From a virus (taxonomy: Duplodnaviria; Caudoviricetes), in IMG/VR virus record IMGVR_UViG_3300017903_002946, positions 16,570-80,569 of that record: DNA of 64,000 nucleotides. One strand, 5' to 3'. This document shows, piece after piece, positions 26,550 through 53,164 of the stretch; within the stretch, counting starts at the first letter, position 1; the number at the start of each line of letters is the position of its first letter. A program made the position numbers and the translations under genes. Below the pieces are notes generated by a model, which had not been told where the DNA came from, did not search any database, and saw only the letters and a program-made list of their open reading frames with translations.

Positions 26550-27635
26550 ATGGCAACTAGCATCATTTCGGGTGCCCAGTCCCGCAAAACAAACTGGGAA
26601 TATTTTTGTGAATGGGTCACTAGTACAAACAATCGCCTCTATGTAGGTTGGTTTGGCGTACTAATGATTCCTACTCTTCTCGCAGCAACTATTTGTTTTA
26701 TTACTGCGTTTGTAGCAGCACCACCTGTCGATATTGATGGAATTCGTGAACCTGTAGCTGGATCTCTGCTTTATGGAAACAACATTATCTCCGGTGCCGT
26801 TGTACCATCCAGCAATGCAATCGGCTTACACTTTTATCCGATCTGGGAAGCAGCAACACTCGACGAGTGGCTGTATAACGGGGGACCTTTCCAACTCACG
26901 GTCTTTCACTTCCTTATCGGTATCTACGCTTACTTGGGACGAGAGTGGGAACTTAGTTACCGACTAGGAATGCGTCCTTGGATTTTCGTAGCATACAGCG
27001 CACCTGTTGCTGCAGCTTCTGCTGTTTTTCTTGTATATCCATTTGGCCAAGGATCTTTCTCTGATGCAATGCCCCTCGGCATCTCCGGAACATTCAACTA
27101 TATGTTTGTCTTCCAGGCTGAACACAATATCCTCATGCATCCCTTCCATATGCTCGGCGTTGCTGGGGTATTTGGTGGCAGTTTGTTTAGTGCTATGCAC
27201 GGAAGTCTGGTTACTTCTTCTCTTATTAGAGAAACGACTGAAGAAGTGAGCCAAAACTATGGCTATAAGTTTGGCCAAGAGGAAGAGACCTACAACATCG
27301 TGGCTGCCCATGGTTACTTTGGTCGCTTGATCTTCCAATACGCCTCCTTCAACAACAGCCGTAGCCTCCACTTCTTCTTGGCTGCCTGGCCTGTTATTGG
27401 CATTTGGTTTACCGCCTTGGGAGTGTCAACCATGGCCTTTAACTTGAACGGTTTCAACTTTAATCAGTCTATTCAATCATCTAAAGGACATGTTATTGAT
27501 ACATGGGCTGATATTTTGAATCGTGCAAGCCTTGGCATGGAAGTAATGCATGAGCGAAATGCTCATAACTTCCCTCTTGATCTTGCTACTGCAGATATTA
27601 CTCCTGTTGCGCTAATTGCACCATCTATTGGTTAA
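26550..27635 (+). CDS. psbA: Photosystem II D1 protein
   Basis: Full-length D1 with the Mn-cluster ligand region intact ([27 protein letters not shown]); RETTEEVSQ fits the viral-type PEST motif. Confidence 0.99.
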
Positions 27636-28697: not shown

Positions 28698-28889
28698 ATG
28701 ACTGTTACTAATGAAGATGGCGGACGCCAAAACGTATTCGCTAAAGAACCAAAAATGAATGTGATGGATGTCACTGTTACGCATAACGAAAAAGCAGAAA
28801 TGTTAAATGGAAGGCTCGCAATGCTTGGCATTATTGCTGCCCTTGGTGCTTACGCAACTACTGGACAAGTCATCCCCGGTATTTTTTAA
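28698..28889 (+). CDS. hli: High-light inducible protein
   Basis: AEMLNGRLAMLG chlorophyll-binding motif, TGQVIPGIF C-terminus. Confidence 0.95.
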   Translation: MTVTNEDGGRQNVFAKEPKMNVMDVTVTHNEKAEMLNGRLAMLGIIAALGAYATTGQVIPGIF

Positions 28890-48961: not shown

Positions 48962-49642
48962 ATGCGTAAAGCTGGTGAACTTATCGCGCAATATTTAAGA
49001 GAAGGAAAGCTTGCAGCAAATCGCAGTGATCCAATTGGATCTGGTGGCAATGCTGTTGTCTTCGCTTCTGATATTCCTGGAAATGTAATGAAGCAATTGA
49101 GCTATCCAGATCAAGGAAAGTTTGGATTGCCGGGAGATGCTCCAAAGGTCATTGAAGAGGCCGATTTGCAAGCTGTGGCAGCTGAGATTGGACTTGCTCC
49201 CAAAGTTGCTGGTGTAGAGACGTTTCGCGGCGGTATAGGTAATCGCATTGAAATGCAAGATGTACGACCTAACTTTGAAACTCATGGTCGACGTGCTCGT
49301 GAATTCCCTTCTGGTAGAGATGCTGTACGAGTTAATCAACAGCTTGGGCAGCTTGCGTTAAAAGGCATTCGTCTAGAAGACAGGCATAATGCCAACGTTT
49401 TGTATAACAAAATGACCGGCCGTCCTATGCAGCTTGACTTTGGTATTGCCGATAAAGTTGAAGGTTCTGAACAAGTAGCAACTCTTGCTATGGCTACAGC
49501 AGAAGGCTTTGAGGCTGCTGGCTTAGATGATATTGCAAGTATTTATCGATCTACGGTTATGGACTTATTAGAGGGTGGCGATGTAGCTGAAGCTATGGAT
49601 GTAGCTAAGCAAGGCTTCAGTCGTTTACAGAAGATTAAATAA
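48962..49642 (+). CDS. Protein kinase-like protein
   Basis: GSGGNAVV loop, VMKQ Lys, EEADLQ, catalytic EDRHNAN, DFG. Confidence 0.8.
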   Translation: MRKAGELIAQYLREGKLAANRSDPIGSGGNAVVFASDIPGNVMKQLSYPDQGKFGLPGDAPKVIEEADLQAVAAEIGLAPKVAGVETFRGGIGNRIEMQDVRPNFETHGRRAREFPSGRDAVRVNQQLGQLALKGIRLEDRHNANVLYNKMTGRPMQLDFGIADKVEGSEQVATLAMATAEGFEAAGLDDIASIYRSTVMDLLEGGDVAEAMDVAKQGFSRLQKIK

Positions 49643-49644
49643 AT

Positions 49645-49935
49645 CTAGTCTTGCTGGTTAGCAGTTCGAATTTTGTTTAAAATACTTGCTTGAATCTCAG
49701 TTTCAGGTCTCAATGATTCAGCTCGTTCACGATCATATTGTTTTTGATAATTACGCATAATTTGAGTTTCAAGCCCAGACCCAAATCCACCCGTACCTGG
49801 TGCTCTTTCTGTTCTAAATGGCTCTGCTTGCCTTCTATATCTATAAGCAGCAGCCCGTTGTTTTGCTAAAGCAGGGCCACGAAAGTTTGGCGTATATGAA
49901 TCTCCTTTCCGTAATCGGCGTCGATCTACAGCCAC
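49645..49935 (-). CDS. Basic hypothetical protein
   Basis: 96 aa, convergent with the kinase. Confidence 0.55.
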   Translation of the reverse strand: MAVDRRRLRKGDSYTPNFRGPALAKQRAAAYRYRRQAEPFRTERAPGTGGFGSGLETQIMRNYQKQYDRERAESLRPETEIQASILNKIRTANQQD

Positions 49936-49955
49936 TATAAATTCCTTATCTTTAC

Positions 49956-50138
49956 TTATATATTATAAATCGCTGTTTGAGGATTAGATTCATTTTCAGC
50001 TTCAAAACAAATTATCCAATCAGCATTTTTGTCTAATAGCTCTGGATCAATGGCATCTTGTAGCATATTAACTGCAGCAATATGATGTGGTGAATTTGAA
50101 AATGCTTTGAAAAATCTAAGTAAATTCACCTTTGCCAT
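49956..50138 (-). CDS. Stand-alone homolog of the endolysin N-terminal domain
   Basis: FFKAF..SPHHIAAV.MLQ..I.PELL...ADW resembles the first ~50 aa of 55797..56546. Confidence 0.6.
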   Translation of the reverse strand: MAKVNLLRFFKAFSNSPHHIAAVNMLQDAIDPELLDKNADWIICFEAENESNPQTAIYNI

Positions 50139-50362
50139 TACAATCCAACTTGCTGATTCAACGTCTTCACTGCTTTGGCTAATGGAATGACAGTAGTCAT
50201 TACTTTTTTAGGCAGCTCTGCTTCTCGTAATTCAATATCTTTTTTTACAAGTTCAATTTCTTGATAAGTACTAGATATACGTTCTTCTAACTTCTTTGCT
50301 TTCCAATTTGTAAACTTTAATGCCAATAATAAACTAATTATTGGTGCTGCAATATATTCCAT
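50138..50362 (-). CDS. Membrane-anchored coiled-coil protein
   Basis: 74 aa, hydrophobic N-terminus. Confidence 0.55.
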   Translation of the reverse strand: MEYIAAPIISLLLALKFTNWKAKKLEERISSTYQEIELVKKDIELREAELPKKVMTTVIPLAKAVKTLNQQVGL

Positions 50363-50396
50363 GTGTATGTTTTAGTTACACAAAGTCTAACTCCAT

Positions 50397-50732
50397 TTAT
50401 ACAAAGGTGAGACCATCGTCTTCTAAATCATCATCTTCCCATCCTTCATCCATGATGTCAGTGGGTAATTCTTCAGAGTTTTCAACATTTAATTCAAGCA
50501 ATTCACAAAATGTTTCTTCAGAAATTATTTCAGGAAGCCCACTTTGCTGCTCATCAATTTTAAAAATGATGCCATTAGACATTAGTGTTTCTTGAACACC
50601 ATTTTTTTGTTCCATTCTTGATTTAAGCAGCCGTAAAGCTGTCTTCTCTAACGCTGGTCGGCTCATTCTCATAACTTCGTATCTCGCTCTCGTAAGAGCA
50701 AAACGTTGCTCGATTGTTAACTGTGCATTCAT
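50397..50732 (-). CDS. nblA: NblA-like protein with acidic C-terminal extension
   Basis: LTIEQRF...V..MS...L...QETL aligns without gaps to the NblA pattern LSLEQQF...V..MS...L...QELL (recalled). Confidence 0.6.
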   Translation of the reverse strand: MNAQLTIEQRFALTRARYEVMRMSRPALEKTALRLLKSRMEQKNGVQETLMSNGIIFKIDEQQSGLPEIISEETFCELLELNVENSEELPTDIMDEGWEDDDLEDDGLTFV

Positions 50733-51075
50733 CTAGTTCTTCCTCAATAAATCTTTTGTTTAAAATCCATTCTTCAATTAATTCTTTGGCAGTTTCGTTG
50801 TAAAACACTTGCCGTTCAAACCATATTAACCATGATTCTGAACCTTTTGAGTGGTTGCATGTTTGACAGCAAGGAATAAGGTTGCTTCTAAGACTGCTAC
50901 CCCCTTTTGATTTTGGTTTTATGTGATCCAGTGTTGTTGCTCGATTAGAGCGACAATATGCACATAAGCCGCCCCAGCCGTATTTAATTGACTTGCGGAA
51001 CTTACGCTTAGCAGAGCCTTTAGAAAGGCAATCTAGGTTGAACATTAAGTCAGCCCAGTCTTCAGCGATACCCAT
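50623..51075 (-). CDS. HNH endonuclease
   Basis: CAYC...LDHIKPKSKGG...NLIPCCQTCNHSK. Confidence 0.88.
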   Translation of the reverse strand: MGIAEDWADLMFNLDCLSKGSAKRKFRKSIKYGWGGLCAYCRSNRATTLDHIKPKSKGGSSLRSNLIPCCQTCNHSKGSESWLIWFERQVFYNETAKELIEEWILNKRFIEEELDECTVNNRATFCSYESEIRSYENEPTSVREDSFTAA

Positions 51076-51146
51076 TCGTTCTTATTTAAGGAACTTACTA
51101 AGAATGTAACGTAGCTCCGTTCTTTTTATGTACTTAAGTAATATTT

Positions 51147-51383
51147 TTAGCGAGTCTGACTTATAACAAGTTCATCTAATTTTTCTTCAATTCGAATCAT
51201 ATGACCTTCTACACGCTCTAGTGTTTTTTCAAAATCATTTTTTGTCACATAATTTTGTGCCATGCTTAATTCAACTCCATCAATTCTTTTGTCTAAATTA
51301 TCTAATTTAGAGCTTAGTTTTGATGTAAGCACAAAACCACCAGTAACTACAGCTATAGTAGCACTAATAATCGACTCAATCAT
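51147..51383 (-). CDS. TM plus coiled-coil protein (possible lysis accessory)
   Basis: 78 aa. Confidence 0.55.
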   Translation of the reverse strand: MIESIISATIAVVTGGFVLTSKLSSKLDNLDKRIDGVELSMAQNYVTKNDFEKTLERVEGHMIRIEEKLDELVISQTR

Positions 51384-51470
51384 GATTTAAATGAATATGA
51401 GGCCTTTTCTTAATTGTATCTCATATAAATACTTATTTTTTTCTAGAATACTTTCAAAGCAATCTTATTC

Positions 51471-51872
51471 ATGAATTTAGAACTTGACGAGCTATATTGT
51501 CATCCCGCTCTTTATATTGCTAGATCTGATACACATCGTTGGGGTGTGTTTACATCTGACGATATTGAAATGCATGATGTTTTACAAGAATCTCCTTACT
51601 GTACGTTTCCGTACAAAGAGCTTTCTAAAAAATCAGATATACTTGTCCGCTATACATACGATTCAGCTGATAATAACCAGACTGACGAATCAATATTAGG
51701 TTTCGGATTCGCTGGATTATACAATCACTCAGTTGATTATAATGCAGCTTACGAACTTGATACAGTCAATGAAGTCATGCGTCATTATGCAACAGAAGAT
51801 ATTCCTGCTGGATCTGAAATTTTTATTAATTATGGATATGAAGAAGATGAAGAAGACTTTGGTGACTACTGA
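51471..51872 (+). CDS. SET-domain protein-lysine methyltransferase
   Basis: WGVF...I...QESP, GLYNHS..YN, ATEDIPAGSEIFINYG. Confidence 0.88.
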   Translation: MNLELDELYCHPALYIARSDTHRWGVFTSDDIEMHDVLQESPYCTFPYKELSKKSDILVRYTYDSADNNQTDESILGFGFAGLYNHSVDYNAAYELDTVNEVMRHYATEDIPAGSEIFINYGYEEDEEDFGDY

Positions 51873-52116
51873 TCTTTTTTGACTGATTTATGGCGGTATG
51901 AGATAGTCCATCCATCTTCACCAAATATGCCTGTTTCTTTCGATTCCCAAGGATCCTCAGAAACTAATTGTGCATCGAGCCACTCTTGTTCTGCTCTGTC
52001 TAGTTTACTAGGCAAGGTTGCATAAAACTTTTGCTCATTTATTGCACGACGAAGTTTTTCGGTTGGACTTCTAGTGTCAAACCGATAAATCCATTTACCG
52101 TCATGCGGTATGTTGC

Positions 52117-52260
52117 TTAAGCCTTTTTTCCAGGCTTAATTGCATTGATTGCAGAAAGCACCAACTGAACAACACTGTTTGACTTCAAAGGAGTTAAAGC
52201 AATAATTTCAGAAGCTGCTGCAACTACAATCCAAAAAATTGGAGATTCGATAATACCCAT
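52117..52260 (-). CDS. Small membrane protein, possible holin (47 aa)
   Basis: Hand-translated MGIIESPIFWIVVAAASEIIALTPLKSNSVVQLVL... Confidence 0.5.
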   Translation of the reverse strand: MGIIESPIFWIVVAAASEIIALTPLKSNSVVQLVLSAINAIKPGKKA

Positions 52261-52298
52261 TTCTCTATTTATAGGTTTGTCATTATTCTAACTACTTT

Positions 52299-52418
52299 GC
52301 TACACAAACTACGCCTATATTTTATATATCTAGTTATTTATTAGCTACTACTGCCTATATACATTTTTAGAAAACAGTATATAAGCAGTAACGTAGTTAG
52401 CGTAGTTTCTGTAGTTGC
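52299..52418. repeat. Iteron/AT-rich element copy C (inverted), overlapping the recombinase stop codon
   Basis: Reverse complement reads CTACGCTAACTACG...TATATACTGTTTT...CTAATAAA...ATATATAAA...GCGTAGTTTGTGTAGC. Confidence 0.85.
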
Positions 52419-53164
52419 TTTGCGATATCTTCAAGTAGCACATCGCCGTAGCTTGCTGTCATACCAGATGGTTTGTGTCCTACTACAGCCATTGCAATAC
52501 TGTATTCAATCCCTGCTTGCCGCATACGAGTGATAAACGAGTGTCGAATACCATGAGCTGATATACCTGTGTGTTTTTTTAGCTTGCGACTGAAGTAGTC
52601 ACCTGCGTTGGGATTCGTTGTAAAAGGGAATTTTTCAATATATTTAAAATACTCAGGGTGTATTGGCACCTTCCTCTGCGTGTATTCGTTTTTACATTTA
52701 CGAATATGATTGTGCTCAATGTTGATATACGGTTGTTCAGCATCTGTCACAAAGTCTTCAGGCAACAAGCATGCCACTTCACTGATCCTGAAGCCGTGTA
52801 ACCACACCGCCATAAACAATGGATCATCATGGAACTGGTGGAAGTGATCAAACTTTTTATGTGGATACTTTTTCTTAGAACGACCTAATCCCTTGAGCAT
52901 TCCACGCCAGGGATTCCATTTAAGAATTCCCATTTCTACCCCGCGTTCCCACATCGAACCGAGGTAACCAAGCTGTGTTCGAACATAACCTTCTGTGTAG
53001 TCACACTCAAGGAGTTCGCACCTGTGATCAACGCAGAACTCCCTATCAATTTTGGAAGTGTCTACATTCTCAAAATGCCTTGAAGAGTGCCTCCATCCGT
53101 ATTGGGTTGACTCCGACAAACGCTTGAATGACAGCGTCCGTTTACAAAGTTTTGAAACCAACAT
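52397..53164 (-). CDS. Compact tyrosine recombinase
   Basis: HGFRISE (R), KCK (K), HGIRH (HxxR), VGH, ASYG (Y); 255 aa, no arm-binding domain evident. Confidence 0.9.
   Translation of the reverse strand: MLVSKLCKRTLSFKRLSESTQYGWRHSSRHFENVDTSKIDREFCVDHRCELLECDYTEGYVRTQLGYLGSMWERGVEMGILKWNPWRGMLKGLGRSKKKYPHKKFDHFHQFHDDPLFMAVWLHGFRISEVACLLPEDFVTDAEQPYINIEHNHIRKCKNEYTQRKVPIHPEYFKYIEKFPFTTNPNAGDYFSRKLKKHTGISAHGIRHSFITRMRQAGIEYSIAMAVVGHKPSGMTASYGDVLLEDIAKQLQKLR

What the first reader, a model, noticed from the sequence alone, without database searches (positions are those of the whole stretch)
50397..51075. NblA-like gene whose core is overprinted on an HNH gene, with an acidic tail
Seen: the first ~47 aa align without gaps to the NblA pattern, the first 110 nt overlap the HNH ORF out of frame, and a ~60-aa D/E-rich extension follows. 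Known: NblA is the Clp adaptor for phycobilisome degradation and occurs in some cyanophages. Inference: late antenna dismantling alongside D1/HLIP maintenance, which implies a phycobilisome-bearing (Synechococcus) host. The tail may be a new regulatory feature.
Basis: partly seen in the sequence, partly recalled or inferred. Interest (0 to 1): 0.7.

Follow-up and report, generated by a model that had tools for sequence, protein, structure and literature searches.

The report
Known cyanophage NblA variant, acidic tail
This is a real but already published second, divergent copy of the phage antenna-degradation gene nblA; its conserved acidic tail is still unexplained, and its overlap with the neighbouring HNH nuclease gene is mostly the nuclease reading frame drifting into nblA, not the reverse.

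Summary
A 111-aa minus-strand ORF (50397-50732) overlaps the 3' end of a 150-aa HNH ORF (50623-51075) by 110 nt. It has an NblA-like core at residues 4-51 and a 60-residue tail with 20 D/E.

NblA homology is supported by Pfam (sub-threshold but full length), by a family profile that hits PDB 3CS5, and by a predicted hairpin whose three best PDB matches are the three NblA structures.

It is not new. The genome belongs to the uncultured cyanophage lineage of Flores-Uribe et al. The protein closely matches (about 95% by my reading of the alignment) 'gene_3b' in the published alignment of Nadel et al. Its orthologue G1b failed to restore bleaching in a S. elongatus nblA knockout. The functional a-type nblA is also in this genome, outside the window.

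'Overprinting' runs the other way. The nblA frame is under purifying selection. The HNH tail frame evolves like a passenger, and its stop moves (38-182 nt) with synonymous nblA codons. One relative keeps nblA but only a remnant of HNH.

The tail is conserved, mostly disordered in prediction, and absent from the papers searched. Its function is unknown. A Synechococcus host is not implied.

The parts
50397..50732 (-). b-type nblA-like gene, 111 aa plus stop
   Evidence: ORF. It closely matches gene_3b of Nadel et al. (about 95% by my reading, not computed). There are 1772 database relatives of about 111 aa.
50580..50723 (-). NblA core, residues 4-51: a basic two-helix hairpin (pI 10.9 for residues 1-51)
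   Evidence: PF04485 model positions 1-48 of 50. Family profile against 3CS5, E=1.2e-5. AF2 helices 7-22 and 25-52, pLDDT 74-89. 1OJH, 2Q8V and 3CS5 are the top three structural matches, Z 6.1, 5.7 and 5.2.
50487..50576 (-). Conserved middle module, residues 53-82 (NGIxFKIDEQQxGLPEIISEETFxxLL)
   Evidence: Invariant or near-invariant G54, I55, F57, K58, E61, P67, E68, I69, I70, S71, E72, T74, F75, L78, L79. pN 0.20 against pS 0.84. AF2 gives only one confident short helix, at 72-81.
50400..50486 (-). Variable linker plus acidic C-terminal peptide, residues 83-111 (lPtDImDEGWEDDDLeDDGL followed by a hydrophobic end)
   Evidence: 13 D/E in the last 30 residues. I93, D95, E99, D102, D106 and L108 are conserved. 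pN 0.25 against pS 0.77. Low pLDDT.
50722..51075 (-). HNH endonuclease gene, conserved part (residues 1-118)
   Evidence: PF01844, 41.2 bits against a cut-off of 21.4. phrog_2214 covers residues 6-116. pN 0.20 against pS 0.75. The aligned conservation ends at ...KRFIEEELD.
50623..50732 (-). Overlap: the HNH tail (about residues 115-150 plus stop) read out of frame over nblA codons 1-37
   Evidence: The tail is poorly conserved and its stop wanders. The HNH-frame dN/dS proxy is about 3.
50737..50745 (-). Shine-Dalgarno-like GAGGAAGAA, 4 nt upstream of the nblA ATG and inside the HNH codons for IEEE. A TAG closes the nblA frame directly before the ATG.
   Evidence: Sequence. A purine-rich GAGGA-type motif is present in most of 50 distinct upstream sequences.

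Best explanation
The ORF is a genuine but divergent nblA homologue. [quoted passage not shown] Shown here: an NblA-type two-helix core at residues 4-51, joined to a 60-residue acidic extension that is specific to this family. The extension is under purifying selection. It is predicted to be mostly disordered, with one short amphipathic helix and an acidic peptide bearing an aromatic residue, ending in hydrophobic residues. Inferred: the core acts like NblA. It would dimerise, with itself, with the phage a-type NblA or with a host NblA, and would mark host light-harvesting or other proteins for Clp-dependent degradation. The tail would supply a second docking contact or mask the charge of the unusually basic core, changing target or partner specificity. 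That would explain why the G1b orthologue did nothing in freshwater S. elongatus. The overlap with HNH is largely a by-product. The HNH gene has no stop of its own before the nblA start, so its frame runs out of frame into nblA until a synonymous nblA codon happens to create a stop. The nblA ribosome-binding site lies inside the last conserved HNH codons. nblA is kept when HNH decays.
For: NblA homology. Identity with published gene_3b/G1b: and 10.1101/494369 and 10.1101/325100. Tail conservation and selection. Predicted tail disorder. Opposite charges of core and tail. An a-type copy is in the same genome and in all 13 near-complete relatives that carry the b-type. On the overlap: HNH and nblA-b overlap in the same relative frame in all but three of the roughly 100 loci that carry both; in those three one of the ORFs is truncated or frameshifted. 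The stop position varies and is explained by TAT|GAA, CTT|AAR, GCT|AGG and CTT|AGT junctions. pN and pS by frame are. L164 keeps nblA-b intact but only a 3' remnant of HNH. Published precedent: T7-like cyanophage nblA overlaps the upstream exonuclease gene by up to 110 nt, and clade R nblA lies downstream of an HNH gene (PMC12695635).
Against: The orthologue G1b did not restore bleaching in a S. elongatus nblA knockout and did not dock as a homodimer in silico (10.1101/494369). Adaptor activity is therefore unproven for this type. This protein is below the Pfam gathering score (21.7 against 25 bits). The structural Z-scores of 5-6 are modest for a helical hairpin. No partner of the tail was identified. 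Monomer AF2 says nothing about dimers or complexes. The first roughly 12 nblA codons avoid stop-creating synonymous codons: Ile7 is never ATT in 54 sequences, against 63% ATT downstream. So a short part of the HNH extension may be selected and the overlap is not wholly neutral.
Confidence: 0.5

Rival explanations
1. The b-type protein is not a degradation adaptor in its own right but a modulator. It would heterodimerise with the phage a-type NblA or with host NblAs, as NblA1 and NblA2 do in Synechocystis. The acidic tail would then retarget, activate or inhibit the partner.
For: The a-type accompanies the b-type in all 13 near-complete relatives and in this genome. G1b was inactive alone, and its authors suggested it needs another NblA as partner (10.1101/494369). 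The very basic core and very acidic tail suit regulated electrostatic interactions.
Against: In-silico docking in that paper did not give a G1/G1b heterodimer. The a-type and b-type share no detectable similarity by hhalign. No complex prediction could be run here.
Confidence: 0.25
2. The overlap is functional dual coding. Both the HNH C-terminal tail and the NblA N-terminus would be needed, or HNH translation through the nblA start would regulate nblA expression by coupling or occlusion.
For: The overlap is present, in the same frame, in all but three of the roughly 100 loci with both genes, and is never shorter than 38 nt where both ORFs are intact. Stop-creating codons are avoided in the first roughly 12 nblA codons, and T-ending codons are generally depleted in the overlap (0.27 against 0.46). 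The nblA SD-like motif lies in conserved HNH codons.
Against: The HNH tail frame has pN well above pS, and its length varies from 126 to 174 aa. nblA synonymous change is not reduced in the overlap (pS 0.79-0.83 against 0.77-0.90 elsewhere). L164 has lost HNH but kept nblA. In L107 HNH is truncated while nblA-b is intact.
Confidence: 0.15
3. The protein merely shares a helical-hairpin shape with NblA and does something unrelated, for instance a basic nucleic-acid-binding hairpin with an autoinhibitory acidic tail, or a DNA mimic.
For: The Pfam score is below the cut-off. The orthologue failed complementation. The core pI of 10.9 is atypical, since the aligned 3CS5 segment is about neutral by my count. 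Helical hairpins match many folds at Z 4-5.
Against: A full-length, gap-free profile match to NblA is the only significant one. All three NblA structures rank first among 48,161 chains. The conserved LxxEQxF and MSxxxLE motifs align. The gene sits in a cyanophage alongside psbA.
Confidence: 0.08

Closest known systems
[quoted passage not shown] 2019, 10.1101/325100; Nadel et al. 2018/2019, 10.1101/494369)
   Same: It is the same gene family. gene_3b differs from this protein at only a few residues (about 95% by my reading, not computed), and the whole tail is included. The genome type is the same: about 80-86 kb, terminal repeats, integrase, split DNA polymerase, psbA, and a second a-type nblA.
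   Different: Nothing material. The papers do not discuss the C-terminal extension or the HNH overlap: 'HNH' has no occurrence in 10.1101/325100, and the extension is not mentioned in the text read.
Canonical cyanobacterial NblA (PF04485; PDB 1OJH, 2Q8V, 3CS5)
   Same: A roughly 50-residue helix-turn-helix core. The profile match is E=1.2e-5 and 21-25% of aligned residues are identical.
   Different: This protein is twice as long. It has a conserved 60-residue acidic extension and a strongly basic core. It scores below the Pfam gathering score. The orthologue did not complement a S. elongatus nblA mutant.
NblA of T7-like cyanophages such as S-TIP37 (PMC12695635)
   Same: A phage nblA whose 5' part overlaps the upstream gene: 94 nt in S-TIP37 and up to 110 nt elsewhere. 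One clade (R) has nblA downstream of an HNH gene.
   Different: The phage lineage and the NblA clade are different. tblastn of this protein against 50,697 phage records found nothing. No acidic extension is reported for those proteins. S-TIP37 NblA has been shown to speed infection and drive phycobilisome loss.
Synechococcus phage S-EIV1 hypothetical protein AHV82245.1 (KJ410740, 73902-74222)
   Same: An NblA-like core followed by an extension of about 45 residues, with an acidic run and a hydrophobic C-terminus. hhalign to this family gives probability 71% and E=3.6e-5 over residues 4-61.
   Different: The tail sequence itself does not align. The gene follows a lysozyme gene and has no HNH neighbour. 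The host is a freshwater polar Synechococcus.
Two-part protease adaptors with a C-terminal tethering peptide, such as SspB for ClpX (from general knowledge, not tested)
   Same: The layout is similar: a folded substrate-binding part, a flexible linker and a short conserved terminal peptide.
   Different: There is no sequence relationship. The partner of the tail is unknown. This is an analogy only.

Membership tests
NblA (PF04485) | Significant sequence match to the NblA profile over its full length | tested here: inconclusive
   This protein scores 21.7 bits, E=2.9e-4, below the curated 25 bits, but covers model positions 1-48 of 50. 31 of 34 family members hit PF04485 and nothing else, best E 5.2e-7. 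The family profile against NblA 3CS5 gives E=1.2e-5, with the next hit at E=0.2. Homology is supported; the curated cut-off is not reached by this sequence.
NblA (PF04485) | Helix-turn-helix hairpin of about 50 residues, a short helix followed by a long helix | tested here: met
   AF2 gives helices 7-22 and 25-52 with pLDDT 74-89. 1OJH (Z 6.1, 52 of 52 aligned), 2Q8V (Z 5.7) and 3CS5 (Z 5.2) are ranks 1-3 of 48,161 chains.
NblA (PF04485) | Small single-domain protein of about 60 aa | tested here: not met
   The protein is 111 aa. A conserved 60-residue extension is present in all full-length family members examined, which are 107-114 aa.
NblA (PF04485) | Dimer formation | not testable with these tools
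   Only monomer prediction was available. Published docking did not give a G1b homodimer (10.1101/494369).
NblA (PF04485) | Binds phycobiliproteins and ClpC and causes bleaching | not testable with these tools
   This needs an experiment. The orthologue G1b did not restore bleaching in a S. elongatus nblA knockout, while a-type G1 did.
HNH endonuclease (PF01844), for the upstream ORF | HNH profile match above the cut-off, with the Cys/His motif region | tested here: met
   PF01844 gives 41.2 bits against 21.4, over residues 38-80. The CxxC...DHxxP...N...CxxCNxxK pattern is conserved across loci.
Overprinted (de novo) gene | The newer frame lacks homologues outside the overlap lineage and the older frame carries the constraint | tested here: not met
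   This was tested for nblA as the supposed new frame. nblA has homologues in cyanobacteria and carries the constraint. It is the HNH tail that fits the 'new, unconstrained frame' description.

The most novel reading that the evidence does not exclude
The conserved acidic extension would be a new functional module on an NblA scaffold. It would be a docking or charge-masking peptide that retargets the adaptor, for example to phycoerythrin rods or to non-phycobilisome proteins of marine picocyanobacteria, or that controls pairing with the co-encoded a-type NblA. This would define a two-NblA system in an abundant uncultured cyanophage lineage. An analogous extended NblA in phage S-EIV1 would make it a recurrent solution.
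Probability: 0.3. Interest if true: 0.55.

Novelty: already known. Interest (0 to 1): 0.3.

Why it matters
Viral NblA has been shown to speed cyanophage infection and reduce light harvesting by ocean picocyanobacteria (PMC12695635). The b-type copy studied here is abundant in marine metagenomes, with 1772 relatives. It always accompanies an a-type copy in the near-complete genomes checked. It failed the only functional test done so far. Knowing what its conserved acidic tail binds would show whether these phages run a two-component or retargeted antenna-degradation system. The overlap analysis is a small cautionary case: a long, lineage-wide gene overlap can be mostly a neutral run-on of the upstream frame.

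Tried and rejected
- blastn of the region and tblastn of the protein against 50,697 phage records found no match.
- PHROGs gave no family for the protein.
- Foldseek against the PDB gave nothing below E=3. The wide VIA-align search was needed to see NblA.
- The ESM Atlas search with the tail gave no usable hit.
- A word-index search for the tail on proteins longer than 195 aa found none.
- I considered the tail as a shuffled module, because P0153 and P0154 carry it on other N-termini. The N-terminal part of P0154 belongs to another phage protein family that lacks the tail. Its tail matches an ordinary b-type nblA (L164). It is therefore probably a chimeric contig or a rare recombinant. P0153 was not followed up. 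I do not use either as evidence.
- A scan of 185,579 species genomes found only four short contigs in non-cyanobacterial MAG bins. These are probably mis-binned phage fragments. No cyanobacterial genome matched, so there is no host clue.
- An HNH-NblA fusion by frameshifting was considered. In most sequences a TAG closes the nblA frame directly before its ATG. No slippery site was looked for, and I did not pursue this.
Context came from IMG/VR loci instead.
- The promoter and terminator scan of 49500-52500 found fewer sites than in shuffled sequence, so it says nothing about timing of expression.

Full report
**What is there.** On the minus strand, an ATG-initiated ORF of 111 aa (50397-50732) starts 110 nt before the end of a 150-aa ORF (50623-51075) and lies in the +1 frame relative to it. 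The upstream ORF is an HNH endonuclease: PF01844 gives 41.2 bits against a cut-off of 21.4, and phrog_2214 covers residues 6-116. A GAGGAAGAA motif sits 4 nt upstream of the downstream ATG, inside the HNH codons for IEEE. A TAG closes the downstream frame directly before that ATG. The two genes sit in a tightly packed minus-strand run of small genes from 51383 down to 49645. No convincing promoter or terminator lies inside that run.

**Is it NblA?**
- Pfam NblA matches residues 4-51 to model positions 1-48 of 50. The score is 21.7 bits (E=2.9e-4), below the curated 25 bits.
- I collected 54 related loci from IMG/VR and three more distant proteins, and built a 34-sequence alignment, A1.
- 31 of its 34 members hit PF04485 and no other Pfam family, best E 5.2e-7.
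- The A1 profile, searched against all PDB sequences, finds S. elongatus NblA (3CS5) at E=1.2e-5. The alignment is gap-free, residues 4-51 against 9-56. The next hit is at E=0.2.
- AlphaFold2 on A1 gives two helices, 7-22 and 25-52, with pLDDT 74-89.
- Foldseek found nothing. An all-against-representatives structural search ranked the three solved NblA structures first, second and third of 48,161 chains: 1OJH Z 6.1, 2Q8V Z 5.7, 3CS5 Z 5.2. Each was aligned over its whole length.
- The Z values are modest for a helical hairpin. The agreement of profile and fold evidence makes homology to NblA secure.

**It is already published.**
- The window lies in an 80,569-bp IMG/VR virus record with direct terminal repeats. 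The window carries an integrase-like ORF, a DNA polymerase split into two ORFs, and psbA.
- That is the uncultured marine cyanophage lineage of Flores-Uribe et al. Its genomes carry nblA, and three of the four original genomes carry two different copies (10.1101/325100).
- The supplementary alignment of Nadel et al. contains 'gene_3b'. It differs from this protein at only a few residues (about 95% by my reading, not computed), tail included. 'gene_1b' and 'gene_4b' belong to the same type.
- Nadel et al. expressed G1 (a-type, about 75 aa) and G1b in a S. elongatus nblA knockout. G1 restored phycocyanin loss. G1b did not, and it did not dock as a homodimer. The authors suggested it may need another NblA as partner.
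- The a-type copy is present in this genome too, at G000:C1:4888-5082, outside the window (51% identity to G1). It is also present in all 13 near-complete relatives that carry the b-type. By hhalign the two types show no detectable similarity to each other.

**The overlap.**
- Across about 100 IMG/VR loci, found through either protein, every HNH homologue of at least 54% identity is followed by the b-type nblA wherever the contig continues (L103 ends before it). The overlap is present in the same relative frame in all but three, where one of the ORFs is truncated or frameshifted.
- The position of the HNH stop is not conserved. Among 60 distinct nblA sequences, overlaps of 38, 50, 53, 56, 89, 107, 110, 116, 158, 164 and 182 nt occur. 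One further sequence (L107) has a truncated HNH and no overlap.
- Each stop is made by a T-ending synonymous nblA codon followed by AA, AG or GA: TAT|GAA at Tyr18-Glu19, CTT|AAR at Leu36-Lys37, GCT|AGG at Ala16-Arg17, and CTT|AGT at Leu13-Ser14.
- HNH amino-acid conservation ends at ...KRFIEEELD, just where nblA starts. The tail beyond that varies at almost every position.
- Pooled pairwise Nei-Gojobori proportions for the overlap are pS 0.79 and pN 0.14 in the nblA frame, against pS 0.13 and pN 0.34 in the HNH frame. nblA synonymous change in the overlap (0.79-0.83) is not lower than elsewhere in the gene (0.77-0.90). Synonymous sites are saturated, so the ratios are only indicative. The direction is unambiguous.
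- One relative, L164, has an intact b-type nblA preceded only by a 3' remnant of HNH (residues 69-108, 68% identity) downstream of a different gene. In L107 HNH is truncated while nblA is intact.
- So nblA is the older and selected frame, HNH is dispensable, and most of the HNH tail is a run-on.
- One qualification: no stop occurs in the first 12 nblA codons. Ile7, which is followed by GAR, is ATC or ATA in 54 sequences and never ATT. ATT makes up 63% of Ile codons downstream of the HNH stop. T-ending codons are also generally rarer in the overlap, 0.27 against 0.46. This points to some selection to keep the first few residues of the extension, or to some other constraint near the nblA start. 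I did not correct for relatedness.
- A similar arrangement is described for T7-like cyanophages. There nblA overlaps the upstream exonuclease gene by 94 to 110 nt, and in clade R it lies downstream of an HNH gene (PMC12695635).

**The tail.**
- Residues 52-111 hold 20 D/E and one K/R, with pI 4.05. The core is strongly basic, with 10 K/R, 5 D/E and pI 10.9.
- The tail is not low-complexity filler. NGIxFKIDEQQxGLPEIISEETFxxLL (residues 53-82) is nearly invariant. A short variable linker follows, and then lPtDImDEGWEDDDLeDDGL with a hydrophobic end is conserved in pattern.
- pN is 0.20-0.25 against pS of about 0.8, comparable with the HNH core.
- AlphaFold2 gives no compact fold, either in the whole protein or for the tail alone. 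Mean pLDDT of the tail alone is 65 and pTM is 0.30. Only the helix at 72-81 is fairly confident.
- No Pfam, PHROG, Atlas or long-protein match was found for the tail.
- An exhaustive HMMER search of 1.84 billion representatives found only 42 hits. Those I examined were family members, fragments or fusion forms.
- The one other example of an NblA-like protein with an acidic C-terminal extension that I found is AHV82245.1 of Synechococcus phage S-EIV1, which is listed in the Nadel alignment. hhalign to A1 gives probability 71% and E=3.6e-5 over residues 4-61. The acidic parts do not align.
- The papers read do not discuss the extension. 'C-terminal', 'extension' and 'acidic' give no relevant passage in PMC12695635, and the text of 10.1101/494369 read does not mention it.

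**Mechanism.** Shown: an NblA-fold core, a conserved acidic and largely disordered tail, and co-occurrence with an a-type NblA. Inferred: the core works as an NblA-type adaptor, and the tail gives a second contact or masks the basic core, changing partner or target. This would account for the failure of G1b in a freshwater host that lacks phycoerythrin and the phage a-type protein. I put this at about 0.5. The modulator or heterodimer variant is about 0.25. The remainder is split between a functional overlap and a non-NblA function.

**Host and timing.** psbA is present at window 26550-27635. A probable HLIP signal lies near window 28770-28850 (19 bits, below the 22.3 cut-off). A Synechococcus host does not follow from nblA. 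nblA-carrying T7-like phages infect Prochlorococcus, and low-light Prochlorococcus themselves encode nblA (PMC12695635). No cyanobacterial genome among 185,579 species genomes carries the b-type gene. 'Late' expression could not be assessed.

**Verdict.** The gene is a known, published phage NblA variant. The direction of 'overprinting' is reversed. The conserved acidic tail is the only open point of interest.

Noticed in passing
outside the window: G000:C1:4888-5082 (-) = L057:1477-1695 (-): A second, a-type nblA of 72 aa, 51% identical to the experimentally active G1 of Nadel et al. It is missed by PF04485 even at E<=10. It lies just downstream of a 457-aa ORF.
   Followed up: partly
L164:2295-2407 (IMGVR_UViG_3300025141_001009): A relative in which HNH is reduced to a 3' remnant (residues 69-108). 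The b-type nblA is intact and follows a 209-aa ORF that I did not identify. The integrase, SET and the 78-aa upstream gene are absent from this locus.
   Followed up: partly
window 50712-50714 (nblA codon 7) and the whole overlap 50623-50732: Ile7 is never ATT in 54 distinct sequences, although ATT is 63% of Ile codons later in the gene. T-ending codons are depleted throughout the overlap (0.27 against 0.46). Possible weak selection on the HNH frame or near the nblA start; not corrected for phylogeny.
   Followed up: partly
L174:2468-2788 (+) = KJ410740 73902-74222, Synechococcus phage S-EIV1: A 'hypothetical protein' with an NblA-like core plus an acidic extension (DQDDEDDDDDDIDDL...APF), downstream of a lysozyme gene. 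It has the same architecture as the b-type but a different tail sequence.
   Followed up: partly
window 49956-50362 (-) and 51147-51383 (-): Small genes flank the HNH-nblA pair: a 78-aa protein (phrog_12220, N-terminal hydrophobic segment plus coiled coil), a 74-aa protein with an N-terminal hydrophobic segment, and a 60-aa protein with a weak endolysin-PHROG hit (E=5.8e-4). All are syntenic across the lineage. Function unknown.
   Followed up: no
protein P0130 (108 aa), metagenomic: A natural variant in which a hydrophobic segment and a charged stretch (an unidentified N-terminus) replace NblA-b residues 1-39. The rest of the core and the whole tail are retained. It may be a deletion fusion or an assembly artefact.
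   Followed up: no
window 51471-51872 (+): The SET-domain gene next to this cluster is present in only some of the related loci, as expected for an optional cargo gene.
   Followed up: no
window 28770-28850 (+): The probable HLIP gene scores below the Pfam Chloroa_b-bind cut-off (19 against 22.3 bits, E=8.9e-5).
   Followed up: no
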